64,000 nt of DNA, taken from Methanobacteriota archaeon. GTDB lineage: Archaea; Thermoplasmatota; Poseidoniia; Poseidoniales; Thalassarchaeaceae. Below the pieces are notes generated by a model. The model searched no databases. It was given only the letters and a program-made list of their open reading frames with translations, and was not told the origin of the DNA. This document shows positions 1,892-55,999 of this stretch, piece after piece; position 1 is the first letter of the stretch; each line of letters opens with the position of its first letter. The DNA is taken from the NCBI GenBank assembly GCA_016845365.1, contig JAERST010000024.1, forward strand, positions 160,461 to 224,460, given 5' to 3'. A program made the position numbers and the translations under genes.

Positions 1892-3019
1892 CTACTGATT
1901 GGAGGATTCGTCAGAAGATGCACGATATTGAGATGTGTGCATCTGCACCGATTGCCGGCGCCACAGTTGGGAGTCAGAACGTGGATCATCAAGCCATCCG
2001 AGTCCAATGACCTGCGTCCCAGCCGACGTGAGAGCGTTCGTGAGGTAGTTGGGGATTGGAGTGCCATCACAACCTGTTACCGCCAAACGAGTGAGTCCGG
2101 TTCTGCGAGCGGTTTCGAGTAATTCTTCTTGCTCTCTCTGCTCAAGACATAATGCCCCTGCCTGAACTACTCCGATACCTCGCCCCGCCCACTGCCGGTT
2201 CATGCTCGGACAGGCTCCCTCACACGAACAATCCAGCATCAAAACTCGCTGAGTGTCCCCATCTCTGTCACGCAGGGTCGGAAGTCGAATAATTCGTGCT
2301 CCCAATGGTCCAGTCGGTGTGCTTCGGGACAGAATTTCCGTGAGGCAAGCAACCGTGACTGCAATCAAAACTCGGACTCCCTCGAAGGTGGCAGGTAATG
2401 TCAGGATTAGCGTGCCCGCGCAAATTGCGAGAATTCGGTTGCGGAATCGGCTGTGGCCACCTTCGACCAGGCCAAAAATCCGTGAGAGTGAAAGGAATAA
2501 GCTGCTGATGAAGAGGAGGATTAGGATCCAGGAAAGGCCGCTGGCTAGAGCGAATAATTCCGCTGCGTCGTAATGGGCAGATACTCCAGATATCGTATCC
2601 AGTTCTAGACCGATTTCGACGAAATATGGAATCATCTCGAACCATACCCAATAGAGAGTCAGAGGCACGAGGATAGCGCTTAGCAGAAGGAAGGAGTCAA
2701 ACCAGCGCTTTTCTGCCAAGGATAGGCCTGGGCGTGCAAATTTTCGGATATCGAGAGAAAGGAATGGTAGTGTCAACGTTGCAGCGATAATGAAAACTGC
2801 AACAATTCTCATCTCGACCCAATCGTAAGGGCCGTAAACCGAAAGCGCTCCTGCTGGAGATTGGGTCGATGCCCAATCGAATACGATTGATTCTATCCAA
2901 ATCGAAGTAATCGCGGCTATGATAACGAAGACGAGTGCCGCTCTTCGAATCACCGAATGAAGCTGTGCAAGGTGATTCGCAACCGGAACTGGCCGGTCGC
3001 CGAAAGAAGTTGATTCCAT
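1892..3019 (-). CDS. tatC: TatC-like twin-arginine translocase membrane subunit with a ~110-aa Cys-rich C-terminal extension
   Basis: Polytopic membrane protein. The N-terminal HLAQLHSVIRRAALVFVII and the LSLAEKRWFDSFLLLSAILVPLTLYWVWF region follow the TatC pattern (HLxELRxRL ... LxxxEKRxxxxxxSxxLF). The C-terminal tail contains LDCSCEGACPSM. Confidence 0.5.
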   Translation of the reverse strand: MESTSFGDRPVPVANHLAQLHSVIRRAALVFVIIAAITSIWIESIVFDWASTQSPAGALSVYGPYDWVEMRIVAVFIIAATLTLPFLSLDIRKFARPGLSLAEKRWFDSFLLLSAILVPLTLYWVWFEMIPYFVEIGLELDTISGVSAHYDAAELFALASGLSWILILLFISSLFLSLSRIFGLVEGGHSRFRNRILAICAGTLILTLPATFEGVRVLIAVTVACLTEILSRSTPTGPLGARIIRLPTLRDRDGDTQRVLMLDCSCEGACPSMNRQWAGRGIGVVQAGALCLEQREQEELLETARRTGLTRLAVTGCDGTPIPNYLTNALTSAGTQVIGLGWLDDPRSDSQLWRRQSVQMHTSQYRASSDESSNQ

Positions 3020-3020
3020 C

Positions 3021-4019
3021 TCACATCACATCGTGAACGGTGGGCTCGGCCTTCGCGGACCGTACCGTTCGATAGACACCGTAAGATGCCCATGCCGCGA
3101 TGAACCAAGCGCAGCCGATGATGAAATCACCTTGACCGCCATTTGCGGTCCAATCGACTGCTAAGTAGAATGCGAGAAGGGCGACGAGACCTCGACGAAT
3201 TCCTTGTGGGTAGGCCAATTCCATGGCCAAGTGCTCTGGCCCTGTTTGGTAACGGCGCTCCAAAATTTCGCGTTGGTAAACAGCGCCGACGAGGAGAGCG
3301 GTTAGAGAGGTCCAGTAGAATAGATTGCCTTTCTCGAAGATTCTGTCAGAGAGAGCTTCTTGGCGCTTAGCTTCCTTTTGTGCCTCGCTCTCCTCGAGAA
3401 CAAAGAGCGTGTCATAATCGCCAACGGCTATGGTGCGGGTTTGCAATGTTGCGGGGCTGTCTCCATAGGTAATCGTGCCTGGTGCATTGATTGAGAAGGT
3501 CAAGACATTCCAGTAATCGCCCTCATCAGGTAGACCACTAGAATCAACCGAGTTCCCTACGAGGCTGAAGTGAACAGCACCAGAATCCTCGCTCGGGGCT
3601 GTCCAAGTGAATGTCCAGACACCATTGCCAGTGTGAGCGTGGGAAATCGCATCTGGGTCATCTTCAGCCTCGCGGATATCTTCACTTGAATCCCAAGAAA
3701 AAGCCCCGACTCCGTTAGCAGTCAGGATGAATCCAGCCTTGGTATTACCATCGGAGCCGGCTAGGGTTACCGAGTCGGCGACGGTGATGATCATCTCGTA
3801 GGCTGCACCAGCATCGTACATCACCGGAACTCCAGAGATCATCACGACCGCGCGATCAGCAGTTGCACCATTACCGTGGCAGGAGCAACCGTATTTCACG
3901 GTCTCGTCATTATCTCCATTCAGTTGAGGAGGGCCTTGGCTATTACCGAAGGCCGGCAGAGCGAGTAGGCCAATGAGAATCAAAGCGACCAGAAGTCTTG
4001 GAGAACGACCCATCAGCAC
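3021..4019 (-). CDS. Exported, membrane-anchored protein with a conserved GCSCH (Cys-X-Cys-His) beta-rich domain; paralog of 49723..50538
   Basis: Sec-type signal peptide (RLLVALILIGLLALPAFG). Domain motifs GCSCHGNG ... SHAHTGNGVWTFTWTAPSEDSGAVHFSLVGNSV ... DYWNVLT are shared with the ORF at 49723..50538. Three C-terminal TM helices. Confidence 0.6.
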   Translation of the reverse strand: MLMGRSPRLLVALILIGLLALPAFGNSQGPPQLNGDNDETVKYGCSCHGNGATADRAVVMISGVPVMYDAGAAYEMIITVADSVTLAGSDGNTKAGFILTANGVGAFSWDSSEDIREAEDDPDAISHAHTGNGVWTFTWTAPSEDSGAVHFSLVGNSVDSSGLPDEGDYWNVLTFSINAPGTITYGDSPATLQTRTIAVGDYDTLFVLEESEAQKEAKRQEALSDRIFEKGNLFYWTSLTALLVGAVYQREILERRYQTGPEHLAMELAYPQGIRRGLVALLAFYLAVDWTANGGQGDFIIGCAWFIAAWASYGVYRTVRSAKAEPTVHDVM

Positions 4020-4093: not shown

Positions 4094-5524
4094 TCAGAGC
4101 TCCTTAACGGCGGCATTGAGTTCGTTCATCATCTTCTTGCCGTCTCCGAAGAGCATCATCGTCTTGTCTTCGTAGAAGAGGTCGTTATCGACTCCAGCAT
4201 AACCTACTGAGAGACTGCGCTTGATGATGACAACGGTGCGTGCCATGTCAGCATCGATGATTGGCATACCAGCCAGAGGACCCTCTCCCGTGCGGGCTGC
4301 AGGGTTGCAGGTATCGTTGGCTCCGATGATGAGAGCGATGTCTGCCTCAGGCATCTCTGGATTGATTTCATCCATCTCGATGAGTTGCTCGTACGGCACA
4401 TTTGCCTCAGCTAGTAAGACATTCATGTGACCGGGCATACGACCTGCGACAGGGTGGATTGCGTACTTGACCTCGGTGTCGAATTTCTCGGCGACGAGGT
4501 CGGCGAATTCCTTGACTTGGTGCTGGCACTGGCTAACCGCCATTCCATATCCTGGAACGATGATGATCTTCTGAGCCCCATCGACCATCATCGCAACCTC
4601 GTCAGCATCACTACCGACCTTGGTGCGTGTCAATTGCTCCTTATCCGAGCCTCCGAATGCCTTGAAGAGGACATCCTTGAGCTCGCGATTCATAGCCTTG
4701 CACATGATGAAAGTGAGGATTAATCCGCTCGCTCCGACCAGCGAACCAGCGACGATTAGTACGCTGTTGGAGATGATGAAGCCGGTGAAGGCGGCGGCGA
4801 TTCCGGACAGCGAGTTGAGTAGCGACACAACTACTGGCATATCGGCGCCGCCGATCGGAAGAACGAGCAGAACACCGAGGAGACATGAAATTCCGATGAT
4901 TGCGAATAGGTAATCGGTATTGGTTGGCTCCTCGATTGCCAAGATGATTAACGCCAAAGTTCCGAAGAAAAGTAGGGCCTTGATTGGATTAAGCCATTCA
5001 GGCCCCCAAGTCGGCGTGCGAATCCACTTGCCGAAGATTTCGACGCCGCCCTTGAGTTTGAGCATGGCGAGGAGAGAGCCGGTTAGGGTCATCCAGCCAA
5101 CTAGCGCGGAGAGTCCGGCGGCGACGACCATGACTTGCAATTCGAGCCCAGCAGGAAGTTCTAGGCTCGCATCCTCGATGTATTTCCACGACTCCGAGAG
5201 AGCGACGAGAGCTGATGCAGCCCCTCCAAATCCATTGAACAGAGCGACCAATTCAGGCATTCCCGTCATCTCGACGCGAACTGCCATGATCCAGCCGATT
5301 GCTCCACCAATCAGCAAACCACTGCCAATCAATGTCCAACCGACGATTCCTTCGCCGAGTTCCATTTGCAGAATCGTCGTCAACACAGCGACGAGCATTC
5401 CCATCGCACCGAGTTGGTTTCCGCGAGGTGCGGTGCGAGGGTGAGAGAGCTTCTTCAATCCGAAGATAAAGAGAGCAGCAGAAAGTAAGTAGCCAAGAGC
5501 CACCCAATCTGAGTCAAACATCAC
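4094..5524 (-). CDS. pntB: NAD(P) transhydrogenase subunit beta
   Basis: N-terminal polytopic membrane domain followed by the canonical C-terminal NADP(H)-binding domain (IIVPGYGMAVSQCQH ... HPVAGRMPGHMNVLLAEANVPY ... GANDTCNPAA). Confidence 0.9.
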   Translation of the reverse strand: MMFDSDWVALGYLLSAALFIFGLKKLSHPRTAPRGNQLGAMGMLVAVLTTILQMELGEGIVGWTLIGSGLLIGGAIGWIMAVRVEMTGMPELVALFNGFGGAASALVALSESWKYIEDASLELPAGLELQVMVVAAGLSALVGWMTLTGSLLAMLKLKGGVEIFGKWIRTPTWGPEWLNPIKALLFFGTLALIILAIEEPTNTDYLFAIIGISCLLGVLLVLPIGGADMPVVVSLLNSLSGIAAAFTGFIISNSVLIVAGSLVGASGLILTFIMCKAMNRELKDVLFKAFGGSDKEQLTRTKVGSDADEVAMMVDGAQKIIIVPGYGMAVSQCQHQVKEFADLVAEKFDTEVKYAIHPVAGRMPGHMNVLLAEANVPYEQLIEMDEINPEMPEADIALIIGANDTCNPAARTGEGPLAGMPIIDADMARTVVIIKRSLSVGYAGVDNDLFYEDKTMMLFGDGKKMMNELNAAVKEL

Positions 5525-5832
5525 TGACCACCTCGCTTCTTACCTGCAATCATGTTCAGCATACGATTTGTCACAGCAAATCCGCCAACTACGTTGATCA
5601 TTGCTAGAACAACTGCGATGAATGCGAGAATACCACTGACCATCGTGTCCCCACCGGAGTAAGCGACGTTAGCTCCGACAAGGGCACCGACGATACTGAT
5701 TCCCGAGATTGCATTTGCACCGCTCATAAGTGGTGTGTGCAGAGTCGCTGGCACCTTCGTGATCAGTTCGAACCCGAGGAAAATCGACAGTGCGAAGAGT
5801 GTGATTGAGCCGATTAGCATTGTTGGATCCAT
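5521..5832 (-). CDS. pntA: NAD(P) transhydrogenase alpha subunit, membrane part (PntAA2)
   Basis: 103-aa, 3-4 TM protein lying between pntA1 and pntB with translational coupling (overlapping stop/start). Typical split-PntA arrangement. Confidence 0.8.
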   Translation of the reverse strand: MDPTMLIGSITLFALSIFLGFELITKVPATLHTPLMSGANAISGISIVGALVGANVAYSGGDTMVSGILAFIAVVLAMINVVGGFAVTNRMLNMIAGKKRGGQ

Positions 5833-6992
5833 CAGAGAACACCTCCTAACCTAGTCTGCTTTGGGTGCATTTTCCCGTCAGAACAGATGAGGACGCCGCC
5901 CATTCCTGGGACGTGGAAATCGTTACCCTCGGGCGCACCGACGAGGACATCATCTTCCTCCGAGAGGACTAGTTCACCCTCCTTGGTGATTGAAGTGATG
6001 AACGTTGTAAGATTGTTTGAGTAAAGCATTGAAGCGGTATTAGCGAGAGTTCCGGGCAAGTTCTTCGTTCCGATGATTGTTACACCATTCTCGGTAGTGA
6101 TGACTTCGCCGGCCACGGTATCCTCGCAATTACCACCAACATCCGCGTTCATATCGACTATTACTGCGCCTGACTTGAACGCGGCGACCGCGCTGCTCGG
6201 CACTGTGATCGGTGCAGGACGCCCGAAGATTCGCGCGGTCGTGACAATGATGTCAGCGTCTTTGGCGACACCGCAAACGGTGTCGTTGACCTTTTGGATG
6301 AATTCGGGAGTGAGAGGCTTGGCGTAGCCGGATTCATCCTCGAAATCATCCATTCCATCAACTTCGATGAAGCGCCCGCCGACCGATTCAATTTGCTCGG
6401 CGGCTGACTTGCGAACATCCGATGCGTATACGACAGCACCCAAGCGCTTGGCGGTGGCGATGGCTTGCAGGCCAGCGACACCGCTTCCCATGATTACCGC
6501 CTTTGCAGGACGTACTGTTCCTGCAGAAGTCGTCATCATCGGTATGCCCTTTGCGACTGCTGCTGCACCGAGCAGGACAGCCTTGTATCCGGCTAGATTG
6601 TCCTGACTCGAATTAACATCCATCGATTGAGCTCGAGAGAGACGACGCGGAATCATATCCATCGAAAGCAGAGTTACCTCCGCGTCGAGGCACGCCTGAA
6701 CCTTCTCAGGGTGCCGGAAAGGATCTGCAACACAAGCGACGACCTGTCCGGAGTGGAGGTCTGAGACATCGGGAAGGTGTATCGAAATGATTAGCGGGGC
6801 AGCCAGAACATCGGAACGACTTGTCACCGTAGCACCGGCATCTGAGTACTCTGCGTCGGAGTGATTTGCAGAGATTCCAGCGCCGGATTCGACAACGACC
6901 TCAAAGCCAGACTTGCCGAGTTTGCGCAACGATTTCGGGACGATTGCGACCCTGTTCTCTCCCTCTGGCTCCTTCAAAACACCCAGTATCAT
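5832..6992 (-). CDS. pntA: NAD(P) transhydrogenase alpha subunit, soluble NAD(H)-binding part (PntAA1)
   Basis: Alanine-dehydrogenase/PNT fold with Rossmann motif VIMGSGVAGLQAIATAKRLGAVV. The likely true start is MILGVLKEPEG (6992) rather than the ORF-track start at 7091. Confidence 0.85.
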   Translation of the reverse strand: MILGVLKEPEGENRVAIVPKSLRKLGKSGFEVVVESGAGISANHSDAEYSDAGATVTSRSDVLAAPLIISIHLPDVSDLHSGQVVACVADPFRHPEKVQACLDAEVTLLSMDMIPRRLSRAQSMDVNSSQDNLAGYKAVLLGAAAVAKGIPMMTTSAGTVRPAKAVIMGSGVAGLQAIATAKRLGAVVYASDVRKSAAEQIESVGGRFIEVDGMDDFEDESGYAKPLTPEFIQKVNDTVCGVAKDADIIVTTARIFGRPAPITVPSSAVAAFKSGAVIVDMNADVGGNCEDTVAGEVITTENGVTIIGTKNLPGTLANTASMLYSNNLTTFITSITKEGELVLSEEDDVLVGAPEGNDFHVPGMGGVLICSDGKMHPKQTRLGGVL

Positions 6993-7130
6993 CAACAACA
7001 CGCTCGCCCCGATGAGCCGTAGGCTCAAGTCAGGTAAGGTGAGCGACCGACACTCGATTATTGAATCAAACGGATGGTGTGGTTCCTGCACCGACTCGGG
7101 CGAGCGAGAAATTGTCGTTTTCTTGCGACT

Positions 7131-49157: not shown

Positions 49158-49266
49158 GAGCGAAGGCTCATCGCGGGCGCGCCTTGAAACTGAGGGTTGA
49201 GTCCCAGGCTCAAAGAAGCGATTGAAGACTCATCAAATGAGCACGAAGAGAAGAAGGAACCCCCCC

Positions 49267-49572
49267 TCAATCGTAGGTCAGATATCGCTGGTATCTACGG
49301 CGCTCATCGCGAGCCCAAGCATTGTCCGGTTCAATCTCCAGAACCTTATCGTAATACTCGACAGCCTTCTCAAAATCAGAGAGGTATCGCCCGTTCATGT
49401 GAGCGAGGTTGTTCAGAACAGGAACACAGCGCGAATCGGCTTCCAACATCTCGAGGAGAATCTTCTCCGCCCCATTGATGTCCATCATCTCCATCTTATC
49501 CTCGGCTTCATCGAGGCTGGCGATTTGCTCATCGCTCAAGCGGTAGATATTCTTCCACACCGGACCTGCCAT
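49267..49572 (-). CDS. Small TPR-repeat protein
   Basis: LEMLEADSRCVPVLNNLAHMNGRYLSDFEKAVEYYDKVLEIEPDNAWARDERRRY contains two or three TPR-like helical repeats. The ORF-track 5' extension, which would overlap the divergent gene, is unlikely to be real. Confidence 0.45.
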   Translation of the reverse strand: MAGPVWKNIYRLSDEQIASLDEAEDKMEMMDINGAEKILLEMLEADSRCVPVLNNLAHMNGRYLSDFEKAVEYYDKVLEIEPDNAWARDERRRYQRYLTYD

Positions 49573-49722
49573 TACACCATCGAGAGCGCTGATTCGTATG
49601 AGGTTTCGCAGGTTCCGAACGCTCGGCCTCAAAGGCGCTTGAGACGGGGACCCCGTAGGGGTCAAACTGAAACCTTGATATCCCGATGTCGGGTGGAATG
49701 CTTCGTCGTAAGAGGTCAAAAG

Positions 49723-50538
49723 ATGAAGACGCATCACTCGACCTCGCACAGGCTGCTAGTACTGGCCTGTTTCGCATTACTTCTAGCGGGTTCGAGTCAA
49801 GCCTACTCCACCGGCATCGGTGGCGACGAGGATGACAAGGGAGATGTCGCTCTTGCTGGCTGCACCTGCCACACCGAACTCCCCGACAATTCGGTAACGG
49901 TCATCCTCGACCAATTGCCTTACCATTACACAGCAGGCACCACCTACGCCATGAAGATTCAACTCATCGGCGGCCCTGAAATAGACACTTCCTCGACCAC
50001 CGGCGGATTCGCCATGCGCGTGAGCGCAGGAAGCCTCGCCGGTGGCGAAGGTTACGAGAACCAAGTTCAGAATTGGGAGGACGACCCGACCAGTCTAACA
50101 CACGCCGGATCAGGTGGGTCAACTGCCGACCGCATTTGGCTCATCACTTGGACCGCGCCAGAGGAAGGCACTGGCGTAGTGACATTTTCACTCTCTGGTA
50201 ACGCAGTTAACGGAGACCACGCTCCATCTGAGCTCGACCGATGGAATCGCCTGACCACCTCGGTCGACGAAGGCACAGACAATGGCGATACTCGAACTAT
50301 CTTCAGCGGAAATGGAGAGATCGAGCCCCCCGCGCCAGCGGAGACTCACATCGACCTCCACCACATGGGAGCAGCGCTTCGAGCCCACTGGCTCGGCCTG
50401 CTCGGCTTCGGCGCAGTAATCCTTGTGATCCTATTCTGCGGACTATTCCTCCGCTACGGATTCTCTCGTCATTACGAAGGCCGAAGCAACCTTCTCAAAC
50501 TACGAATCAAGCATCTTCGAAGGGGTGACCAACTGTGA
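49723..50538 (+). CDS. Exported membrane-anchored Cys-X-Cys-His domain protein (paralog of 3021..4019), first gene of the Rieske/cyt b cluster
   Basis: Signal peptide MKTHHSTSHRLLVLACFALLLAGSSQA, domain GCTCHTEL...THAGSGGSTADRIWLITWTAPEEGTGVVTFSLSGNAV...DRWNRLT, C-terminal TM. The ORF-track start at 49222 is an upstream artefact. Confidence 0.6.
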   Translation: MKTHHSTSHRLLVLACFALLLAGSSQAYSTGIGGDEDDKGDVALAGCTCHTELPDNSVTVILDQLPYHYTAGTTYAMKIQLIGGPEIDTSSTTGGFAMRVSAGSLAGGEGYENQVQNWEDDPTSLTHAGSGGSTADRIWLITWTAPEEGTGVVTFSLSGNAVNGDHAPSELDRWNRLTTSVDEGTDNGDTRTIFSGNGEIEPPAPAETHIDLHHMGAALRAHWLGLLGFGAVILVILFCGLFLRYGFSRHYEGRSNLLKLRIKHLRRGDQL

Positions 50539-50984
50539 AAGACGACGTCGTCATGAAACTCCTGCGCGAGGTTAAGTCCGGCAAGGTCAGCGTTGAGGAC
50601 GCACGCGAAGCATTGACCGGAGTAGACCTGAGCGAGGAGAATTACGTTGCTGCGGTGGACCACGGAGTATTCAACGAACCCGAGCCAGGAACAATCGTTC
50701 GAGCGAGCCTCTCCCCAACAGGCGAGTCCGCCCTCGTAATCGTCTTCGCACTCTGGGGTATTCTCTGGACACTTTACTGGGCTGGATCTCTCTCATACGG
50801 ACTCTACAATCACTGGGACCAGCAGCGTCTTTCATTCCACTTGGGTATGACGCTGCTGACTGTCATAATGATGGGAATCGTATACATGCGATTCGTCATG
50901 CCGGATGTAGTCGTCGTCAAGCACAGGCGAAATAAGTACATCCCGCCAAATGATACGGAAGGTTGGCAACAATACGAGGTGTGA
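50535..50984 (+). CDS. Small membrane protein (soluble N-terminal helical domain + 2 TM)
   Basis: Translationally coupled between the CxCH protein and the Rieske gene. Confidence 0.45.
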   Translation: MKDDVVMKLLREVKSGKVSVEDAREALTGVDLSEENYVAAVDHGVFNEPEPGTIVRASLSPTGESALVIVFALWGILWTLYWAGSLSYGLYNHWDQQRLSFHLGMTLLTVIMMGIVYMRFVMPDVVVVKHRRNKYIPPNDTEGWQQYEV

Positions 50985-50987
50985 TGT

Positions 50988-51842
50988 ATGGCGCGAAGAT
51001 TCCGATTACGCCCACTTCCTGGTGCCGATGAGCAGGTAACTGAATCGAATCCGGTCATCGACCGCCGTGAATTCATGCGGCACTCATTCAACACGGCTGC
51101 TGGAGTCATCACGATGGCTAGCCTCGGCAGCATCGGCTTTGCTTCACTTCTGATGGGAACCGCCGATTCATCCGGCGGCGATACCGCCGTCCGCTTCTGG
51201 GTGCCGACCGGCGCAGAAGATTCTGCTTGGTACGGCGACCGTCACCTCGAACCAATGTCATACTCCGCCTTCGTCGCCGCAGCAGAGGCTAGCCCGACCG
51301 GCATGTCCGGCGCTCAGGGTGTTTGGTCCGGACTGCCGGTGAACGTAGTCTACGTACCTCATGCAGAGAATGCTAACTCAGCACCGAGCACAAACTCTCC
51401 CCGCTTCCAATTCATGGATGGCTACACCGAGAGTGGGAAGTATGTCGGAAGCGGGTTCGAGTTGGATGAGAATCCAGACTATGCAGCTCTCTCAATCCAC
51501 GACAATCTCATCGTGATTTTCTCTCGTTGCACACACTTGTGCTGCATTCCTGGCTGGCAATTGGTGCAGAACGACTTCACCAATGACCAATGGACTCCTG
51601 GTGCAGTCGACGCGGGCGGGAACAAATTGTTCTGTATTTGTCACTCGAGCCGATTTGACCCGACCGCGATCGAAAAGAATCGAAGTCGAAACCGTTCGAC
51701 AGGAGCCGAATTCGATTTCTTCGGAATCCGCCGAACCGGCGGCCCCGCTCCTGTCGGTTTACCACTCATCCCGTGGGTTATCACGGGCGATACCATTGAA
51801 GCCCTGCCCGACTTCAAAGATTGGTACACATATTGCGACTGA
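50988..51842 (+). CDS. Rieske [2Fe-2S] protein with twin-arginine signal
   Basis: Tat motif DRREFMRHSF plus TM. Rieske boxes CTHLCC and CICHSS. A long N-terminal periplasmic insertion precedes the cluster-binding domain. Confidence 0.85.
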   Translation: MARRFRLRPLPGADEQVTESNPVIDRREFMRHSFNTAAGVITMASLGSIGFASLLMGTADSSGGDTAVRFWVPTGAEDSAWYGDRHLEPMSYSAFVAAAEASPTGMSGAQGVWSGLPVNVVYVPHAENANSAPSTNSPRFQFMDGYTESGKYVGSGFELDENPDYAALSIHDNLIVIFSRCTHLCCIPGWQLVQNDFTNDQWTPGAVDAGGNKLFCICHSSRFDPTAIEKNRSRNRSTGAEFDFFGIRRTGGPAPVGLPLIPWVITGDTIEALPDFKDWYTYCD

Positions 51843-51848
51843 GGTGAG

Positions 51849-52718
51849 ATGATGCTACAATTCTGGTTCCTTTGGCTATTCATCGCCCTCATCGTCGTCC
51901 TCGTCGCATTCACACTGCGTAAGGAGCGCGACGACATGCCTCGCAAGGATATCTTGCGCGCTGTCGAAACCAGCGCAGGCAGCATGGGATTGGCTGAGAA
52001 AACCTTCCTCTGGGCTTTCTCTTGGCTCGACACGCGCTTCCGCATCCAGGATTATTGGGGCATGAGTCGGGATGCGTATTACAGCGTGCACCGTCAAATG
52101 CCTCTTACGCACGCTGAGAAGTATAAGCTTCGAATCATCTGGTATTGGTATCCACTCTACTGTTTGGGTGGAATCTCCTTCCTCGCCTTCGTGATTTTGG
52201 TCATCACCGGAACTGTCCTTGGCCTCTACTATGTCCCTGGTGGAGAAGGCGACCCAACCCCAGCTTATTCATCGATGGAATTCATCATGACGCAGCTTCC
52301 ATTCGGTTACATCATTCGCTCGATTCACCACTGGACGACACACTTCATGGTGGCTGCAGTGTTCCTTCACATGTGTCGAGTTTACTTCACCGGCGCATAC
52401 CGCAACCCTCGTGAGCTAAACTGGCTCATCGGCGTCGCTCTGATGTTCTTCACCATCTTCTTCGGCTACTCAGGCTACCTGCTTCCTTGGGACAGTTTGG
52501 CCTTCGGAGCCGCCACCATTGGCATCAACATGGCGAACTCGACCCCCCTCATCGGAGGGTGGGTCGCGACCGCGATGTTCGCAGGAACATCGCTCTCCGG
52601 CCAGACGGTTACGCGTATGTATTTCCTACACGTATTCATTCTGCCCGTCGTCGTCACAGCGCTAATTCTAGCGCATTTGTTCATCGTTTGGGTGCAGGGT
52701 ATTGCGGAGCCGCACTGA
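51849..52718 (+). CDS. Cytochrome b (b6-type N-terminal four-helix subunit)
   Basis: Heme ligands H-x13-H (IHHWTTHFMVAAVFLHM) and H-x14-H (HVFILPVVVTALILAH), plus the conserved YLLPWD motif. Confidence 0.9.
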   Translation: MMLQFWFLWLFIALIVVLVAFTLRKERDDMPRKDILRAVETSAGSMGLAEKTFLWAFSWLDTRFRIQDYWGMSRDAYYSVHRQMPLTHAEKYKLRIIWYWYPLYCLGGISFLAFVILVITGTVLGLYYVPGGEGDPTPAYSSMEFIMTQLPFGYIIRSIHHWTTHFMVAAVFLHMCRVYFTGAYRNPRELNWLIGVALMFFTIFFGYSGYLLPWDSLAFGAATIGINMANSTPLIGGWVATAMFAGTSLSGQTVTRMYFLHVFILPVVVTALILAHLFIVWVQGIAEPH

Positions 52719-52733: not shown

Positions 52734-55511
52734 ATGGGAATGATCGATAGATTCGGGCGCATCGCGGATACCTACGTACGCGAGAAGAGCACTCTCCTCG
52801 AGGCTGAGCAAGAGCGCAAGCGAGTTTTCGTCGGGCACGCATTCTGGCCGACTGAAGTCTTGCGCGATTCGATTATCTTCGCCGCAATGGTGATGGTTTT
52901 GGCATTCTATTGCTGGTTGATTCCACCGCCACTTCACAGCGCGGCGGACCCATTCGCTCAGGCCGGCTTCGTTTTCCCTGACTGGTATGTTCTGTTCTCC
53001 TATGGATACCTGCGATGGGGCGAATATCTGCCGCAATTCGTTATTCCAGCCGGCCCGATTGGAGAATTCCTCGGCGCCCCTGTGATTTCATGGAACGCTG
53101 CATGGTGGGGCGCCTTCCTAACCGGAATCCCAGTCGGTATTCTCGCGCTTCCACCATTCCTCGGCGGGCGCGAGAAGAGACCTGTCGAGGACCCTTGGTT
53201 TGCTACCGCTGGTGCGGTTTACCTCGCGCACGTTTGGTTCATTTCAGTTTATTCGATCAATATCTTCCTCGAATTATACGCGAAGGATAGAACCGATTAT
53301 TGTTGGGCGAATTCTCATCATGTCCTCGATTGTGGAAGACAAGCTCCTTGGACTGCTGAAGTCTTCAATGCGATTCCTTGGATTCTGACTGGGATATTCA
53401 TATTCGCCGTGTTATTCTTCGGCGTCAGATGGTTCCTTGTCAATTCGATAGGAGCTCGACTGACGCCGGCGATCGGCAAGCAGGTTGCAATCGGCTCGCT
53501 CGTGCTTGCCGTAATGATCTCAGCAGTCACATGGCCAATCTACGAGGGAGGCTTCTGGGATTACGGCGGACTCGGCGCGATGGACGATGTCGAGGAACTC
53601 GAAACCATGCGCGGCCAGCCCGCCGACACTCTGGTCTACGATGGTAAGGGAGATGATTGGGGAGAATGGGGTGACCTCTGCATGACATTCACCGAATCCT
53701 CAGACCTCGGGGTCTGGGATAGTCTGGATGAAAGCGAAGACCCGGCTAAATGGTGTGTCCTTCCCGCCCAGCATTGGTCGAATTGGGGCTTATTCCAACC
53801 AACCCAAGCCACCATCATCGATTTCGAAGGCGTGAACGGACACGCTGATATCGACACCAGACGAAATGCCGCTGGTCAAGCAGCAGAATACAGCGGAAAT
53901 TCTGATTCATCAACCATCAGCCAAAGTTGGACTGATGTGATGCACATCGAAGACCTCGGCCTCTCCTCGGTCTTCGTCGATATCGGCTGCAACTTCCGCA
54001 CAACTGTGCGTGGAGCCGGCAGCCACACCCAAGACCTCAGCATCAGCAATGACGCAGGAAAGGTCCTGTGGTCAGCTGATGGCGAGTGTGACAGTACCAC
54101 TCTCAAACTCGCACCGGGCAATTACAATCTCGAATACAGCGTAACATCTAGCAATGTCAACGAGTCAGTGATGATGATCACCGATTTCAACGCAGTGGCC
54201 TTCCAACCATTACTCCTAGACGAAAATGGTGCTGCCCCCCTCCGAGTGAACATCCCAGCAGGCACCGACCTCGAGGCGATGACACTCGAGAATCCAACCT
54301 TCCACAAGAATCCCAAGAGCCTCGATGCGAAGTTGACCTATTCGATGTTCATTCCATGTTTAGGAATCGGAGCAATCGTCTACATGTTGATGCGCAGCAT
54401 GGCTCGTGGATACGAGTGGGAGATGAACAAGTGCTACGGCTGCGACCTTTGTGACGATGCTTGCCCAGTCCGCTTGTTCAACGCAGGTGACAAACTCAAC
54501 ATCATCTACAATACATGGAATAACGAGGACGATGGAGTTCCACTGTATTCCTGCCTAACTTGCACAGCATGTACCAATGCATGCCCACAACTCGTCGATT
54601 ACGATTCATACGTCGACATTCGCCGCAACCTAATGGTCGGCGGCCCACCAGCCGCCGAGATACCCCACACTCTCCTTCAAGCCGTCCTAGCGGCAGAGGC
54701 TGAGGAGGACGCCGATGCGGAGTTCATTCCTGTGGAGGAATACCCGATCGACTCTAGCGTGGGATACTACCCAGGATGTGTCGACTACATCGACCAAGAG
54801 ATGATTTTCAGCCATGTCAACGAGGGAGAAATGAACCTCGGCGAGACCACGACAGCAGCTTTCACAATCTTCGATGAAATGCAAAAGGACGTCACCTACC
54901 TCGGTCGAGACTTCCTGAAGTGCTGCGGCCACGACCAAAAGTGGCAAGGAATGACGGAAGTCTTCGAGAAACTCAAGGCCTACAATCAGAAGAAGCTCGG
55001 AGAAAGCGGAATCGACACTCTCGTCACATCATGCGCAGAGTGCTTCCGAACCTTTGCGATGGATTACGAACTTGAGGACATGAAGGTCATGCACACGACT
55101 GAATACCTCATCGAGAACGGCTTTGACTTCGACCTCGCTACCCCAGAGGACGTCACCGTGACCTACCACGATCCTTGCAGGCTCGGTCGCCATATGAACA
55201 TCTATGAGGAGCCGCGAGACCTTGTCCGCGGCGTCAACGGAGTGAATTTGGTGGAGATGGAACACTCCGGCGAGGATGCTCTTTGCTGCGGTGTATCGAG
55301 CATGATGTCTTGCAATGAGAATAGTCGCGCCCTACGCCTAGAGCGCTTCGATGAGGTGAAGGCGACGGGCGCAGACATCATGCTGACCAGTTGCCCAAAG
55401 TGCGTAAGCCACTTCGAGTGTCTGAAGTTCGAGGGTGACCCACGTCACGATTTCGAAATCCTCGACGTGGTCTCTTTCCTTGCACGGCAAATCGATGCGA
55501 AGCGCCAGTGA
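52734..55511 (+). CDS. Fusion: cytochrome bc subunit IV-like membrane domain (PDWY motif) + 2 extra TM + ~280-aa acidic extracytoplasmic domain + TM + cytoplasmic HdrD/GlpC-like module (2x[4Fe-4S] ferredoxin + 2 CCG domains)
   Basis: N-terminal FPDWYVLFSYGYLR (PEWY-type Qo motif). C-terminal CYGCDLCDDACP and CLTCTACTNACP. CCG domains KCCGHDQ...CAEC and DPCRLGR...CCGVSS...CPKC. Confidence 0.85.
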   Translation: MGMIDRFGRIADTYVREKSTLLEAEQERKRVFVGHAFWPTEVLRDSIIFAAMVMVLAFYCWLIPPPLHSAADPFAQAGFVFPDWYVLFSYGYLRWGEYLPQFVIPAGPIGEFLGAPVISWNAAWWGAFLTGIPVGILALPPFLGGREKRPVEDPWFATAGAVYLAHVWFISVYSINIFLELYAKDRTDYCWANSHHVLDCGRQAPWTAEVFNAIPWILTGIFIFAVLFFGVRWFLVNSIGARLTPAIGKQVAIGSLVLAVMISAVTWPIYEGGFWDYGGLGAMDDVEELETMRGQPADTLVYDGKGDDWGEWGDLCMTFTESSDLGVWDSLDESEDPAKWCVLPAQHWSNWGLFQPTQATIIDFEGVNGHADIDTRRNAAGQAAEYSGNSDSSTISQSWTDVMHIEDLGLSSVFVDIGCNFRTTVRGAGSHTQDLSISNDAGKVLWSADGECDSTTLKLAPGNYNLEYSVTSSNVNESVMMITDFNAVAFQPLLLDENGAAPLRVNIPAGTDLEAMTLENPTFHKNPKSLDAKLTYSMFIPCLGIGAIVYMLMRSMARGYEWEMNKCYGCDLCDDACPVRLFNAGDKLNIIYNTWNNEDDGVPLYSCLTCTACTNACPQLVDYDSYVDIRRNLMVGGPPAAEIPHTLLQAVLAAEAEEDADAEFIPVEEYPIDSSVGYYPGCVDYIDQEMIFSHVNEGEMNLGETTTAAFTIFDEMQKDVTYLGRDFLKCCGHDQKWQGMTEVFEKLKAYNQKKLGESGIDTLVTSCAECFRTFAMDYELEDMKVMHTTEYLIENGFDFDLATPEDVTVTYHDPCRLGRHMNIYEEPRDLVRGVNGVNLVEMEHSGEDALCCGVSSMMSCNENSRALRLERFDEVKATGADIMLTSCPKCVSHFECLKFEGDPRHDFEILDVVSFLARQIDAKRQ

Positions 55512-55666: not shown

Positions 55667-55999
55667 ATGACCGATATCCCCGACCTCGCTGCTCGCCGAG
55701 CGCGCGAACAGCGTCGCATTCGCATGGTCATGAACGCCATGCGCGCGGAAGAACGCGCCAAACTCAAGGGCGGCGAGGATGCGGTAGCCTGGGTTAAGGA
55801 GGAATTGTGCATTGGTTGTGACCAGTGTACCATCGTTTGCGATGACGACGCGATCGAACTCTACGACACCCCGATGGCAAGCCCGATTATGGACGTCGAT
55901 GTCAACCGAAAAGCCCGCGTCCTGCGCGACCCATGCACCGGCTGCAAACTCTGCGTGCTAGCTTGCCCGACGGACGCGATTATCATGATTGATAGGTGA
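55667..55999 (+). CDS. 2x[4Fe-4S] ferredoxin with basic N-terminal extension
   Basis: CIGCDQCTIVCDDDA and CTGCKLCVLACPTDA, preceded by an Arg-rich leader. Confidence 0.8.
   Translation: MTDIPDLAARRAREQRRIRMVMNAMRAEERAKLKGGEDAVAWVKEELCIGCDQCTIVCDDDAIELYDTPMASPIMDVDVNRKARVLRDPCTGCKLCVLACPTDAIIMIDR

What the first reader, a model, noticed from the sequence alone, without database searches (positions are those of the whole stretch)
3021..4019. Paralogous secreted Cys-X-Cys-His beta-rich domain proteins: one next to tatC, one heading the Rieske/cyt b cluster
Seen in sequence: ORFs 3021..4019 and 49723..50538 share a ~150-aa domain after Sec signal peptides, and both end in TM anchors. Conserved blocks:
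- GC(S/T)CH
- Y..G..Y.M.I
- (S/T)HA(H/G)(T/S)G(N/G)G..(V/I)W.(F/I)TWTAP.E..G.V.FSL.GN.V
- D.WN.LT

The invariant CxCH is one residue too short for a canonical c-type heme attachment site (CXXCH), and it is not a cupredoxin ligand set. Invariant His residues in a second block suggest a metal or cofactor site.

Inference: the domain's position as first gene of the bc-type operon (where a cytochrome c or blue-copper partner usually lies) suggests a novel extracytoplasmic electron-carrier or metallochaperone domain.
Basis: partly seen in the sequence, partly recalled or inferred. Interest (0 to 1): 0.6.

Follow-up and report, generated by a model that had tools for sequence, protein, structure and literature searches.

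The report
Reeler-like CxCH domain in archaeal respiration
Two related membrane-anchored surface proteins of a marine archaeon carry a small beta-sandwich domain with an invariant Cys-x-Cys-His site, and the same domain is built into both its Rieske/cytochrome b gene cluster and its oxygen-reducing oxidase, so it is probably the unidentified electron-passing part of this abundant group's respiratory chain.

Summary
ORFs 3021..4019 (-) and 49723..50538 (+) are paralogs (34% identity over 179 aa, E 5e-22). Each has a signal peptide, a ~145-aa domain with G-C-x-C-H, and C-terminal membrane helices.

The domain is catalogued but functionally uncharacterised: NCBIfam NF041895, "choice-of-anchor V". 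Its predicted fold is that of the Reeler domain of F-spondin. The organism is a Marine Group II archaeon (Thalassarchaeaceae).

New evidence comes from 179 domain copies in related loci:
- 22 head the same five-gene Rieske/cytochrome b cluster.
- 55 are fused to the N-terminus of oxidase subunit I, in two divergent oxidase operon types.
- 10 lie next to oxidase genes.
- 35 sit between pntB and a TatC-like gene.

Other relatives are fused to a plastocyanin-like domain or to a cytochrome b561-like membrane domain. G-C-x-C-H is present in 173 of 173 complete copies. Rare distant relatives have CxxCH, Cx4CH or a single Cys, but always keep "CH".

Best reading: an extracytoplasmic redox module standing in for cytochrome c1/c, possibly with haem on a contracted CXCH site. 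The cofactor is unproven, no haem-attachment genes were seen, and copper handling remains a serious rival.

The parts
3021..4019 (-). Protein A (332 aa from GTG 4019; probably 330 aa from ATG 4013). Layout: signal peptide, choice-of-anchor V / Reeler-like domain, linker, three C-terminal hydrophobic helices.
   Evidence: ORF. NF041895 68.5 bits against cut-off 42. 309 homologs, the named ones Thalassarchaeaceae. Start codon context.
3945..4019 (-). Signal peptide of A (aa 1-25, MLMGRSPRLLVALILIGLLALPAFG)
   Evidence: Hydrophobic stretch. No twin-arginine motif (sequence).
3486..3920 (-). Choice-of-anchor V / Reeler-like domain of A (aa 34-178)
   Evidence: NF041895 match aa 16-174. Weak Pfam Reeler match aa 91-152, E 0.017. 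Alignments.
3876..3890 (-). G-C-S-C-H motif of A (aa 44-48)
   Evidence: Invariant. Coordinates.
3639..3641 (-). Codon of His127 of A (SHAH). This position is His or Gln in A orthologs.
3054..3326 (-). C-terminal membrane region of A with three moderately hydrophobic helices. No Pfam match.
   Evidence: Conserved among A orthologs.
1892..3019 (-). TatC-like membrane protein (375 aa) with a Cys-rich C-terminal extension. Its ATG lies 1 nt after the stop codon of A.
   Evidence: Pfam TatC 51.6 bits. NCBIfam TatC models below cut-off. Junction sequence. The A/TatC-like pair is kept in L004-L007 and in the A-type loci.
4094..7091 (-). pntA / pntA-TM / pntB (proton-translocating NAD(P) transhydrogenase), directly upstream of A on the same strand
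   Evidence: PNTB E 1e-164. ORFs. Same order in L004-L007.
49723..50538 (+). Protein B (271 aa): signal peptide, choice-of-anchor V / Reeler-like domain, His/Met-rich juxtamembrane segment, one TM anchor. It is the first gene of the Rieske/cytochrome b cluster.
   Evidence: ORF. NF041895 84.8 bits. 434 homologs. AF2 model pLDDT 82. Cluster conserved.
49828..50271 (+). Choice-of-anchor V / Reeler-like domain of B (aa 36-183)
   Evidence: Domain-only AF2 model: pLDDT 86, pTM 0.84. Best PDB match is the F-spondin reeler domain, E 2.4e-8.
49858..49872 (+). G-C-T-C-H motif of B (aa 46-50)
50101..50103 (+). Codon of His127 of B (LTHAG)
50347..50385 (+). Juxtamembrane segment HIDLHHMGAALRA of B, conserved among B orthologs (consensus DLHxMGAxxRAHW)
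   Evidence: (consensus)
50371..50469 (+). Transmembrane anchor of B (aa 217-249)
   Evidence: Hydropathy. Helix 218-250 in the AF2 model.
50535..50984 (+). 149-aa membrane protein, second gene of the cluster. Its start overlaps the stop of B by 4 nt.
   Evidence: ORF. Weak DUF7318 match, E 4.6e-5, below cut-off. Present after every B ortholog.
50988..51842 (+). Divergent Rieske iron-sulfur protein with a twin-arginine signal (DRREFMRH) and the boxes CTHLCC / CICHS
   Evidence: TIGR01416 E 2e-11, below cut-off. PDB 7yr9 E 5e-4. No Pfam hit. Sequence.
51849..52718 (+). Cytochrome b, N-terminal (b6-like) half
   Evidence: Pfam Cytochrome_B E 1e-41
52734..55511 (+). 925-aa fusion. N-terminal membrane part carries the Qo motif PDWY (subunit IV-like, inferred). 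It is followed by a large extracytoplasmic insert, then a 4Fe-4S dicluster domain and two CCG (HdrD-like) domains.
   Evidence: Pfam CCG and Fer4 matches. No Pfam match for aa 1-555. PDWY seen in the sequence. Conserved in L001-L003.

Best explanation
**What it is.** Proteins A and B are membrane-tethered, Sec-exported proteins. Their extracytoplasmic part is a Reeler-like beta-sandwich of the NCBIfam family NF041895 (choice-of-anchor V). I propose that this domain holds a redox cofactor at its invariant G-C-x-C-H site.

**Proposed role.** In Marine Group II archaea (Poseidoniales) the domain would serve as the outer-face electron-transfer module of the respiratory complexes.
- B would take the place that cytochrome c1, cytochrome f, CbsA or sulfocyanin hold in other Rieske/cytochrome b complexes, accepting the electron from the Rieske cluster.
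- The copy fused to the N-terminus of oxidase subunit I, and the standalone copy encoded beside it, would pass electrons on to the CuA centre. This parallels the fused cytochrome c of caa3 oxidases.
- Halocyanin may act as a mobile link between the two complexes.

**Favoured cofactor.** Haem, held by His50 and thioether-linked to Cys47 and Cys49 at a contracted CXCH site, with His127 (or Gln) lining the distal side.

**Protein A.** A is a third paralog, fixed between pntAB and a TatC-like gene. Its partner is unknown.

**Shown and inferred.** Shown: paralogy, family membership, predicted fold, motif invariance, gene order and domain fusions. Inferred: redox function, the direction of electron flow and the identity of the cofactor.
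For: **Operon position.**
- B is followed within 15 nt or less by a membrane protein, a Rieske protein, cytochrome b and a Qo-motif/HdrD-like fusion.
- The same five genes follow B orthologs at 42-47% identity.
- They follow every one of 22 B-type copies, as far as each contig reaches.

**Domain fusions.**
- In L012 the oxidase subunit I ORF reads: signal peptide, NF041895 domain (92.8 bits), one TM helix, then the COX1 core (Pfam COX1 aa 224-665). It sits behind COX3 and a COX2 with a CuA motif, and a second standalone copy follows.
- 55 of 179 domain copies are such COX1 fusions. They occur in two oxidase operon types whose COX1 cores are only ~38-45% identical. Ten more copies lie beside oxidase genes.
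- P0256 is the domain plus CARDB repeats plus a plastocyanin/halocyanin-like domain with CEPHATSGM.
- P0312 is the domain plus Ig repeats plus a four-helix DUF4079 with four His and sub-threshold similarity to cytochrome b561. This parallels eukaryotic Reeler-DOMON-cytochrome b561 proteins.

**Site conservation.**
- G-C-x-C-H is present in 173 of 173 copies.
- Of 145 distant representatives that cover the site, 135 have CxCH, 3 CxxCH, 4 Cx4CH, 1 Cx6CH, 1 Cx8CH and 1 has only the second Cys. 'CH' is never lost.
- Variable Cys spacing with a fixed Cys-His is the pattern known for haem c sites, and a CKCH site is reported as a haem-binding site (PMC7096707).

**Topology.** Signal peptide, beta-sandwich, N-terminal Cys/His site and C-terminal TM anchor. 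From my own knowledge, this matches cytochrome f.
Against: - No cofactor can be seen by sequence, and the structure tools return no coordinates. The geometry of Cys47, Cys49, His50 and His127 is therefore untested. Only weak covariation places the N-terminal Gly-Cys near the Trp139 strand.
- No haem-handling protein with a WWD motif occurs in the window or in about 1.3 Mb of related loci. A 2015 survey found Ccm to be the only cytochrome c maturation system in archaea, and found cytochromes c in Thermoplasmatales only in two single-cell genomes (PMC4429474).
- No cytochrome is among the 50 best PDB fold matches. The best are cofactor-free Reeler domains, and copper-binding YcnI appears at rank 42.
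- His127 is Gln in 13 of 35 A orthologs and 4 of 22 B orthologs, so it is not an obligatory ligand.
- Many family members are N-terminal heads of large surface proteins with CARDB, PKD, fn3 or TSP3-like repeats, or are standalone PGF-CTERM proteins with no respiratory neighbours. That fits a binding module as well.
- Thalassarchaeaceae highly transcribe halocyanin (PMC9723583), so a blue-copper carrier already exists.
Confidence: 0.5

Rival explanations
1. Copper-handling domain. The Cys-x-Cys-His site, with His127, binds Cu(I)/Cu(II). The domain captures copper or delivers it to CuA/CuB of the oxidase and to cupredoxins. It would be a functional analog of Cox11 (Ig-like fold, CFCF motif), Sco (CxxxC plus His), PCuAC or YcnI.
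For: - The domain is fused to or encoded beside the copper-containing oxidase in 65 loci and fused to a plastocyanin-like domain in P0256.
- Copper-bound YcnI, a membrane-anchored beta-sandwich, is among the fold matches (E ~1e-3, 18-19% identity).
- From my own knowledge, a two-Cys plus His ligand set resembles that of Sco, and the CxC motif resembles Cox11.
- Export by Sec fits metal loading outside the cell.
- His/Gln exchange at position 127 is known for weak copper ligands (stellacyanin, own knowledge).
- Some relatives carry a His/Met-rich insert, HDMTGGGH.
Against: - It gives no reason for a paralog to be the fixed first gene of a Rieske/cytochrome b cluster that contains no recognisable copper protein.
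- Chaperones act transiently and are rarely fused permanently to their client.
- The type-2 oxidase operon already encodes a Sco-like protein with a CPDVCP motif.
- Adjacent Cys-His, and variable Cys spacing of 1, 2, 4, 6 or 8 residues, are unusual for a defined copper site.
- There is no sequence match to any known copper-chaperone family.
Confidence: 0.2
2. Non-redox Reeler-like surface module. The two Cys form a small disulfide loop that staples the N-terminal segment, and the domain binds a ligand or a partner protein. Candidates are S-layer, glycan, a metal ion, or another copy of itself that tethers the bc-like complex to the oxidase.
For: - The best structural relatives are cofactor-free adhesion-type Reeler domains.
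- It is a 'choice-of-anchor' family of surface proteins.
- Many members are distal heads of large multi-domain surface proteins, or are standalone with no respiratory context in other archaea.
- Variable loop length between two Cys is normal for disulfide loops.
- The conserved N160, N163 and D172 could form a calcium or sugar site.
Against: - Such strict invariance of Gly-Cys-x-Cys-His across more than 300 sequences is unusual for a structural staple.
- The second Cys and the His are never lost, while the first Cys can be. This is the opposite of what a disulfide predicts.
- Repeated independent fusion to redox modules is not expected for an adhesin: COX1 in two oxidase lineages, a cupredoxin, and a b561-like domain.
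- The Rieske/cytochrome b cluster would then lack any outer-face acceptor of its own.
Confidence: 0.15
3. Redox-active dithiol/disulfide domain. Cys47-x-Cys49 cycles between dithiol and disulfide and relays reducing equivalents outside the cell, like the Ig-like N-terminal domain of DsbD.
For: - From my own knowledge, CxC disulfides are strained and redox-active.
- The DsbD N-terminal domain appears among weak fold matches (rank 26).
- The B cluster ends with a heterodisulfide-reductase-like CCG domain.
Against: - The CCG domain follows the last TM segment together with cytoplasmic-type 4Fe-4S motifs, so by inference it lies on the other side of the membrane.
- One-electron carriers (Rieske, CuA) do not pair naturally with a two-electron dithiol.
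- The invariant His next to the second Cys and the single-Cys variant are not explained.
Confidence: 0.05

Closest known systems
NCBIfam NF041895, choice-of-anchor V domain (and NF041894, the MXAN_6652 family)
   Same: Both window proteins, the COX1-fused copy, P0448, P0256 and P0312 all score above the curated cut-off. NCBI already names some orthologs this way. The layout is signal peptide, domain, then a variable C-terminal anchor.
   Different: The family name describes sorting-signal variety only, and no function is attached. I found no paper on it in the library. The respiratory contexts reported here are not part of the family description as far as I could see.
Reeler domain (Pfam PF02014; F-spondin structures 3COO, 2ZOT, 2ZOU)
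   Same: It is the best fold match (Foldseek E 2.4e-8, TM 0.55-0.60, ~18% identity). There are weak sequence matches (A E 0.017; P0331 20.8 bits against cut-off 21; PDB 2zou E 1.6). Eukaryotic Reeler domains also sit N-terminal to DOMON plus cytochrome b561 in CYBDOM proteins, where their function is unknown.
   Different: The match is below Pfam's threshold. F-spondin's Reeler domain is an extracellular-matrix adhesion module without a known cofactor. The G-C-x-C-H site is a feature of the prokaryotic family.
Cytochrome c1 / cytochrome f, and CbsA of the Sulfolobus SoxNL-CbsAB complex
   Same: It holds the same place in the system: an extracytoplasmic, membrane-anchored protein encoded with Rieske and cytochrome b genes. 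SoxNL-CbsAB is named in PMC4122944. From my own knowledge, cytochrome f is likewise a beta-sandwich with its haem site near the N-terminus and one C-terminal TM helix.
   Different: There is no sequence or fold match to any of them in the searches run. The motif is CxCH, not CxxCH. Homology to CbsA was not tested because no sequence was at hand.
Fused cytochrome c domain of caa3-type haem-copper oxidases
   Same: An electron-entry module covalently built into the oxidase on the outer face (own knowledge), as proposed here for the COX1 fusions.
   Different: In caa3 oxidases the module is a class I cytochrome c at the C-terminus of subunit II. Here it is a Reeler-like domain plus an extra TM helix at the N-terminus of subunit I.
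Contracted CKCH haem-binding site of the Kuenenia stuttgartiensis tetrahaem cytochrome (Ferousi et al. 2019)
   Same: A Cys-x-Cys-His site reported to bind haem c (as cited in PMC7096707).
   Different: That site is one of four in an all-alpha multihaem cytochrome of a bacterium that has a maturation system. Here it would be the only site, in a beta-sandwich, in archaea for which no maturation system was found.
Copper chaperones Cox11, Sco, PCuAC and YcnI
   Same: They are membrane-tethered extracytoplasmic small domains that serve haem-copper oxidases. Cox11 has an Ig-like fold with a CFCF motif and Sco uses two Cys plus one His (own knowledge). YcnI is a weak fold match.
   Different: No sequence match. 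These chaperones are not found fused to subunit I or heading Rieske/cytochrome b clusters. A separate Sco-like gene is present in the type-2 oxidase operon.

Membership tests
NCBIfam NF041895 choice-of-anchor V domain | Score above the curated cut-off of the family model (42 bits) | tested here: met
   A 68.5 bits and B 84.8 bits. COX1-fused copy 92.8, P0448 75.5, P0256 97.1, P0312 106 bits.
NCBIfam NF041895 choice-of-anchor V domain | N-terminal signal peptide and, across members, alternative C-terminal anchors | tested here: met
   Hydrophobic N-termini. TM anchors in A and B. PGF-CTERM-like tails in P0256 and L173. Por_Secre_tail in P0334.
Pfam PF02014 Reeler domain | Score above Pfam's gathering threshold (21 bits) | tested here: not met
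   A 16.1 bits (E 0.017). B has no hit at E<=1. Relative P0331 scores 20.8 bits.
Pfam PF02014 Reeler domain | Reeler beta-sandwich fold | tested here: met
   Foldseek against the PDB: the eight best matches are all F-spondin reeler chains, E 2.4e-8 to 1.6e-6, TM 0.54-0.60. Same result with the full-length model.
c-type cytochrome | CXXCH (or accepted variant) haem-attachment motif | tested here: inconclusive
   The canonical CXXCH is absent and CXCH is invariant. 3 of 145 distant relatives have CXXCH at the same place. CKCH is a reported haem-binding variant.
c-type cytochrome | Extracytoplasmic location of the motif | tested here: met
   Signal peptide before the domain and TM anchor after it. 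In the COX1 fusions one extra TM helix returns the chain to the cytoplasmic side before the COX1 core.
c-type cytochrome | Cytochrome c maturation system (Ccm or Ccs) in the same genome | not testable with these tools
   Only neighbourhoods could be read. No WWD-motif protein occurs in the window or in ~1.3 Mb of related loci. A 2015 survey found cytochromes c in Thermoplasmatales only in two single-cell genomes. Whole Poseidoniales genomes could not be scanned.
c-type cytochrome | Covalently bound haem | not testable with these tools
   Needs biochemistry.
Cupredoxin (blue copper protein) | Ligand set His ... Cys-x(2-4)-His-x(2-4)-Met in a C-terminal loop | tested here: not met
   No such pattern in A or B. 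No Pfam Copper-bind hit. By contrast, the fused C-terminal domain of P0256 has CEPHATSGM and hits Copper-bind.
DOMON / haem-binding DOMON-like domains | Match to a DOMON-family profile | tested here: not met
   No DOMON-type Pfam family at E<=1 for A or B. None among the 50 best PDB fold matches. A profile-profile comparison was not possible.
Copper chaperones (Cox11, Sco, PCuAC, YcnI/DUF1775) | Sequence match to the family model | tested here: not met
   No such family in the Pfam or NCBIfam scans. YcnI is only a weak fold match (E ~1e-3).
Third (c1/f-like) subunit of a Rieske/cytochrome b complex (functional class, not a homologous family) | Encoded in one tight operon with Rieske and cytochrome b genes, conserved across relatives, and exposed on the outer face | tested here: met
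   Gene spacing from -4 to 15 nt. Conserved in L001-L003 and in all 22 B-type loci.

The most novel reading that the evidence does not exclude
The choice-of-anchor V / Reeler-like domain is a previously unrecognised class of beta-sandwich cytochrome. Its single haem would be covalently held on a contracted Cys-x-Cys-His site and attached by a pathway other than Ccm or Ccs. The always-paired protein A and its TatC-like neighbour might be part of that pathway. In Marine Group II archaea this domain would supply the 'missing' cytochrome c1 and the oxidase's electron-entry haem. [quoted passage not shown]
Probability: 0.25. Interest if true: 0.9.

Novelty: new variant of a known kind. Interest (0 to 1): 0.72.

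Why it matters
Marine Group II archaea are described as the most abundant planktonic archaea of the surface ocean (PMC6461757). Their respiratory chain has an acknowledged gap: genome surveys report a Rieske protein and cytochrome b but no canonical bc1 complex (PMC6336850).

The data here identify one small domain that sits in both the Rieske/cytochrome b cluster and, as a fusion, in the terminal oxidase. This turns 'MGII-specific complex III' into a testable model of how electrons reach oxygen in these uncultured organisms.

If the cofactor is haem on a CXCH site, three things follow:
- The repertoire of cytochrome folds and attachment motifs would grow.
- An unknown haem-attachment route in archaea would be implied.
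- Pattern searches for CXXCH, on which surveys of archaeal cytochromes rest, would be shown to miss a family with thousands of members.

It may also shed light on the unexplained Reeler domain of eukaryotic Reeler-DOMON-cytochrome b561 ferric reductases.

Tried and rejected
- The Ferousi 2019 paper itself is not held. I cite it through PMC7096707.

**Searches that returned nothing useful**
- The search for related loci with the broad alignment A3 failed for lack of a conserved stretch. The narrower A4, and a hand-built DNA pattern, reached only Poseidoniales and marine contigs. Contexts in bacteria therefore remain unsampled.
- tblastn of a family member against plasmids gave no match.
- The listing of cluster members gave almost no taxonomy for distant members.
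- The third word-indexed protein search returned mostly close relatives.
- Literature searches for 'choice-of-anchor V', 'CXCH', Reeler plus haem, and MGII plus cytochrome c maturation found nothing on this family.
- A regex scan for WWD-type haem-handling proteins in the window and all loci found none. This covers neighbourhoods only.
- A Pfam scan of twenty further window genes (8.8-33 kb) found no haem- or copper-related genes.

**Weak result**
- Mean-field DCA on 549 domain sequences (Meff 296) gave only weak, subfamily-dominated couplings. I do not lean on it.

**Ideas considered and dropped**
- A Rieske-type or other Fe-S site on Cys47/Cys49/His50/His127. The proteins lack consistent twin-arginine signals, and by established knowledge Fe-S proteins are exported folded by Tat.
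- Protein A as a TatA/TatB-like partner of TatC. I saw no TatA-type hinge/amphipathic-helix signature in its sequence.
Full report
**1. The observation**

The window holds both ORFs as described. Protein A is 3021..4019 on the minus strand (332 aa) and protein B is 49723..50538 on the plus strand (271 aa).

- They align over 179 residues at 34% identity, E 5e-22.
- Both have a hydrophobic N-terminal signal sequence.
- B has one strong C-terminal transmembrane helix (aa 217-249). A has three weaker hydrophobic helices in its last 100 residues.
- Close homologs of A are 330 aa, and an ATG lies two codons into the ORF, so 4013 is the likelier start.
- The named hits are Candidatus Thalassarchaeaceae / Poseidoniales, i.e. 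Marine Group II archaea.

**2. What the domain is**

Pfam gives only a sub-threshold Reeler match for A. NCBIfam places both proteins above the curated cut-off of NF041895, 'choice-of-anchor V domain' (68.5 and 84.8 bits; cut-off 42). NCBI already labels some orthologs this way.

AlphaFold2 models are confident: pLDDT 82 for full-length B, and pLDDT 86 with pTM 0.84 for the domain alone. Foldseek against the PDB returns the Reeler domain of F-spondin as the eight best matches (E 2.4e-8, TM 0.55-0.60). After these come generic Ig-like modules. Copper-bound YcnI appears at rank 42, and no cytochrome is in the top 50.

A profile of the domain finds 3,574 cluster representatives at E<=1e-3 among 1.84 billion proteins, so the family is large. 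I found no paper on it.

**3. The conserved site**

- In 74 orthologs of A and B, G46, C47, C49 and H50 (B numbering) are invariant.
- In 144 distant representatives they are 96-98% conserved. P66, Y75, G95-F96, G103, W139, W143, P146, N160, V162, G164, D172 and W174 are also conserved. His127 is 88% conserved.
- Among 145 distant representatives that cover the site, 135 read C-x-C-H. Three read C-x-x-C-H (CMPCH, CTPCH, CSTCH), four C-x4-C-H, one C-x6-C-H, one C-x8-C-H, and one has only the second Cys (ATCH). The Cys-His pair is never lost.
- In 179 Poseidoniales copies collected later, G-C-x-C-H is present in all 173 whose N-terminal part is on the contig. Position 127 is His in 155, Gln in 19 (13 of 35 A-type, 4 of 22 B-type), Asp in 2 and Ala in 1.

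**4. Surroundings in the window**

*Protein B.* B is the first of five tightly packed genes (overlap of 4 nt to a gap of 15 nt):
1. B itself.
2. A 149-aa membrane protein.
3. A divergent Rieske protein with a twin-arginine signal and the boxes CTHLCC / CICHS. It has no Pfam hit but matches TIGR01416 (E 2e-11) and PDB 7yr9 (E 5e-4).
4. A b6-like cytochrome b.
5. A 925-aa fusion. Its membrane part carries the Qo motif PDWY, and it is followed by a large outer insert, a 4Fe-4S dicluster domain and two CCG (HdrD-like) domains.

*Protein A.* A lies directly after pntA-pntA'-pntB. One nucleotide after its stop codon begins a TatC-like gene. That gene passes Pfam's TatC threshold but is far below the NCBIfam TatC cut-offs.

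**5. Related loci**

- B orthologs at 42-47% identity keep the same five genes (L001-L003).
- A orthologs at 55-57% identity keep pntAB - A - TatC-like with the same 1-nt spacing (L004-L007).
- Looking up a more distant paralog (P0448) gave the key result. In L012 an operon COX3 - COX2 (with a CuA motif) - COX1 encodes a 732-aa subunit I. That protein begins with a signal peptide, an NF041895 domain (GCTCH; 92.8 bits) and one extra TM helix before the COX1 core (Pfam COX1 aa 224-665). P0448, a standalone anchored copy, follows.
- A scan of species-representative genomes gave 38 loci, nearly all labelled Poseidoniales, Thalassarchaeaceae or Poseidoniaceae; the others carry only generic archaeal MAG labels.

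Classifying all 179 domain copies with BLAST and the domain HMM gave:

| Context | Copies |
|---|---|
| Fused to the N-terminus of COX1 | 55 |
| Standalone beside oxidase genes | 10 |
| B-type | 22 |
| A-type | 35 |
| Other or unknown context (often short contigs) | 57 |

The COX1 fusions occur in two operon types whose COX1 cores are only ~38-45% identical. One type has the order COX3-COX2-COX1. The other has COX2-COX1-COX3-COX4 followed by a Sco-like gene.

Two further architectures among distant members:
- P0256 is the domain plus CARDB repeats plus a plastocyanin/halocyanin-like domain with a complete type-1 copper ligand loop.
- P0312 is the domain plus Ig repeats plus a four-helix, four-His DUF4079 with sub-threshold similarity to cytochrome b561 families.

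**6. Evidence that cuts the other way**

- Many members are the N-terminal heads of large surface proteins with CARDB, PKD, fn3 or thrombospondin-type-3-like repeats.
- In other, GC-rich archaea the domain is a standalone PGF-CTERM protein without respiratory neighbours.
- No haem-handling (WWD-motif) protein is encoded in the window or in about 1.3 Mb of related loci.
- The 2015 survey of archaeal cytochromes c found Ccm to be the only maturation system. It found cytochromes c in Thermoplasmatales only in two single-cell genomes (PMC4429474).
- Thalassarchaeaceae transcribe a halocyanin gene at high level (PMC9723583), so a blue-copper carrier is available.
- The structure tools return no coordinates, so I could not measure whether Cys47, Cys49, His50 and His127 meet. 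A covariation analysis gave only a weak hint that the Gly-Cys segment packs on the Trp139 strand next to the His127 strand.

**7. How it most likely works**

These steps are shown:
- A secreted, membrane-tethered Reeler-like domain with an invariant Cys-x-Cys-His.
- One paralog fixed at the head of the Rieske/cytochrome b cluster.
- Another built into oxidase subunit I on the outer face, in two oxidase lineages.
- Others fused to a cupredoxin or to a b561-like membrane domain.

From these I infer that the domain carries a redox cofactor and passes electrons on the outer face of the membrane. B would take them from the Rieske cluster. The COX1-fused copy and its neighbour would hand them to CuA. 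Halocyanin may act as a mobile link.

I favour haem as the cofactor for three reasons:
- An always-adjacent Cys-His with a variable, sometimes dispensable first Cys is the signature of haem c sites.
- Three relatives have the canonical CXXCH at the same position.
- A contracted CKCH site is reported as a haem-binding site (PMC7096707).

Gln at position 127 in some copies suggests a distal-pocket residue rather than a fixed sixth ligand.

This cofactor assignment is inference. I put about 0.5 on the electron-transfer module in general and about half of that on covalent haem.

**8. Rivals**

- *Copper-handling domain (0.2).* It explains the oxidase and cupredoxin links and the Cys2His chemistry. 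It does not explain the fixed place in a Rieske/cytochrome b cluster, the permanent fusion, or the separate Sco-like gene.
- *Non-redox Reeler-type binding or tethering module with a disulfide loop (0.15).* It fits the fold and the surface-protein members. It does not fit the asymmetric conservation of the two Cys or the repeated fusion to redox modules.
- *Redox-active dithiol (0.05).* It fits least.
- *Protein A.* Its role is the least clear. Its strict pairing with a divergent TatC-like gene across 35 loci is unexplained.

**9. Comparison with what is known, and novelty**

By membership the proteins belong to NF041895 (tested, met). They have the Reeler fold (tested, met) but fall below Pfam's Reeler threshold. 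They are not cupredoxins, DOMON domains or known copper chaperones by any test I could run.

By function they resemble cytochrome c1, cytochrome f or CbsA in B, and the fused cytochrome c of caa3 oxidases in the COX1 fusions. These are resemblances in role and topology, not in sequence.

The family is catalogued. Its tie to respiratory complexes, and the reading of CxCH as a cofactor site, appear to be new. I rate it a new variant of a known kind: an outer-face electron-carrier subunit in a new fold with a new motif.

**10. Verdict**

Interest 0.72.

Noticed in passing
window 52734..55511 (+); also L001 11006-13822 and L002 11011-13836: The last gene of the Rieske/cytochrome b cluster is a ~925-940-aa fusion. 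Its membrane part carries the Qo motif PDWY. It is followed by a ~300-aa extracytoplasmic insert with four Cys and no Pfam match, then a cytoplasmic 4Fe-4S dicluster plus two CCG (HdrD-like) domains. A bc-type complex wired to a heterodisulfide-reductase-like module is unusual in itself.
   Followed up: partly
window 1892..3019 (-): The TatC-like protein is 375 aa and has a ~140-aa Cys-rich C-terminal extension (CSCEGACP...). That extension is absent from some orthologs (239 aa in L006). It scores far below the NCBIfam TatC equivalog cut-offs, and orthologs are only 24-40% identical to each other. It is always paired with protein A.
   Followed up: partly
window 50988..51842 (+): The Rieske protein of the cluster is so divergent that Pfam's Rieske model does not detect it. 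The boxes CTHLCC and CICHS and a twin-arginine signal are nevertheless present.
   Followed up: yes
L012 3493-5691; L018, L019, L022, L023, L025, L026, L036 (type 1); L029, L042, L045-L047 (type 2): Haem-copper oxidase subunit I of Poseidoniales carries an N-terminal signal peptide, an NF041895 domain and an extra TM helix. This holds in two divergent oxidase operon types. Type 1 is followed by a second standalone copy and two HTH_10 regulators. Type 2 is followed by COX3, a COX4-like gene and a Sco-like gene.
   Followed up: yes
P0256 (647 aa) and P0312 (798 aa), distant family members: P0256 is the domain plus three CARDB repeats plus a plastocyanin/halocyanin-like domain plus a PGF-CTERM-like tail. 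P0312 is the domain plus Big_7 Ig repeats plus a four-helix, four-His DUF4079 with weak similarity to cytochrome b561. P0312 mirrors eukaryotic Reeler-DOMON-cytochrome b561 proteins.
   Followed up: partly
P0303, P0348, P0339 (family members): Some members have a 25-30-aa insert before the His127 strand that is rich in His and Met (for example ...LHDMTGGGHGNVPFAEETWGEL...). It looks like an additional metal-binding loop.
   Followed up: no
window 50347..50385 (+): B orthologs share a conserved His/Met-rich juxtamembrane segment (DLHxMGAxxRAHW) just before the TM anchor. A lacks it. It could supply a ligand or a contact to the cytochrome b/Rieske core.
   Followed up: no
L014, L016, L017, L024, L034, L035 (e.g. 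L034 9997-10914, minus strand): An FTR1/EfeU-type iron permease (REAVE and REGSE motifs) lies 2-4 kb from one class of standalone ~220-aa paralog in six loci. It is on the other strand with unrelated genes in between, so the proximity is probably plain synteny.
   Followed up: no
window 49267..49749 (-) and 49222..50538 (+): The mechanical ORF list extends B upstream to 49222 (438 aa). That extension overlaps a TPR-like gene on the opposite strand, which is called in the same place in L001-L003. The 271-aa form starting at 49723 matches all homologs.
   Followed up: yes
window 55667..55999 (+): A 110-aa 2x[4Fe-4S] ferredoxin follows the cluster. It is also found within a few kb of the cluster in L001-L003, though on the other strand in L002 and L003.
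   Followed up: no
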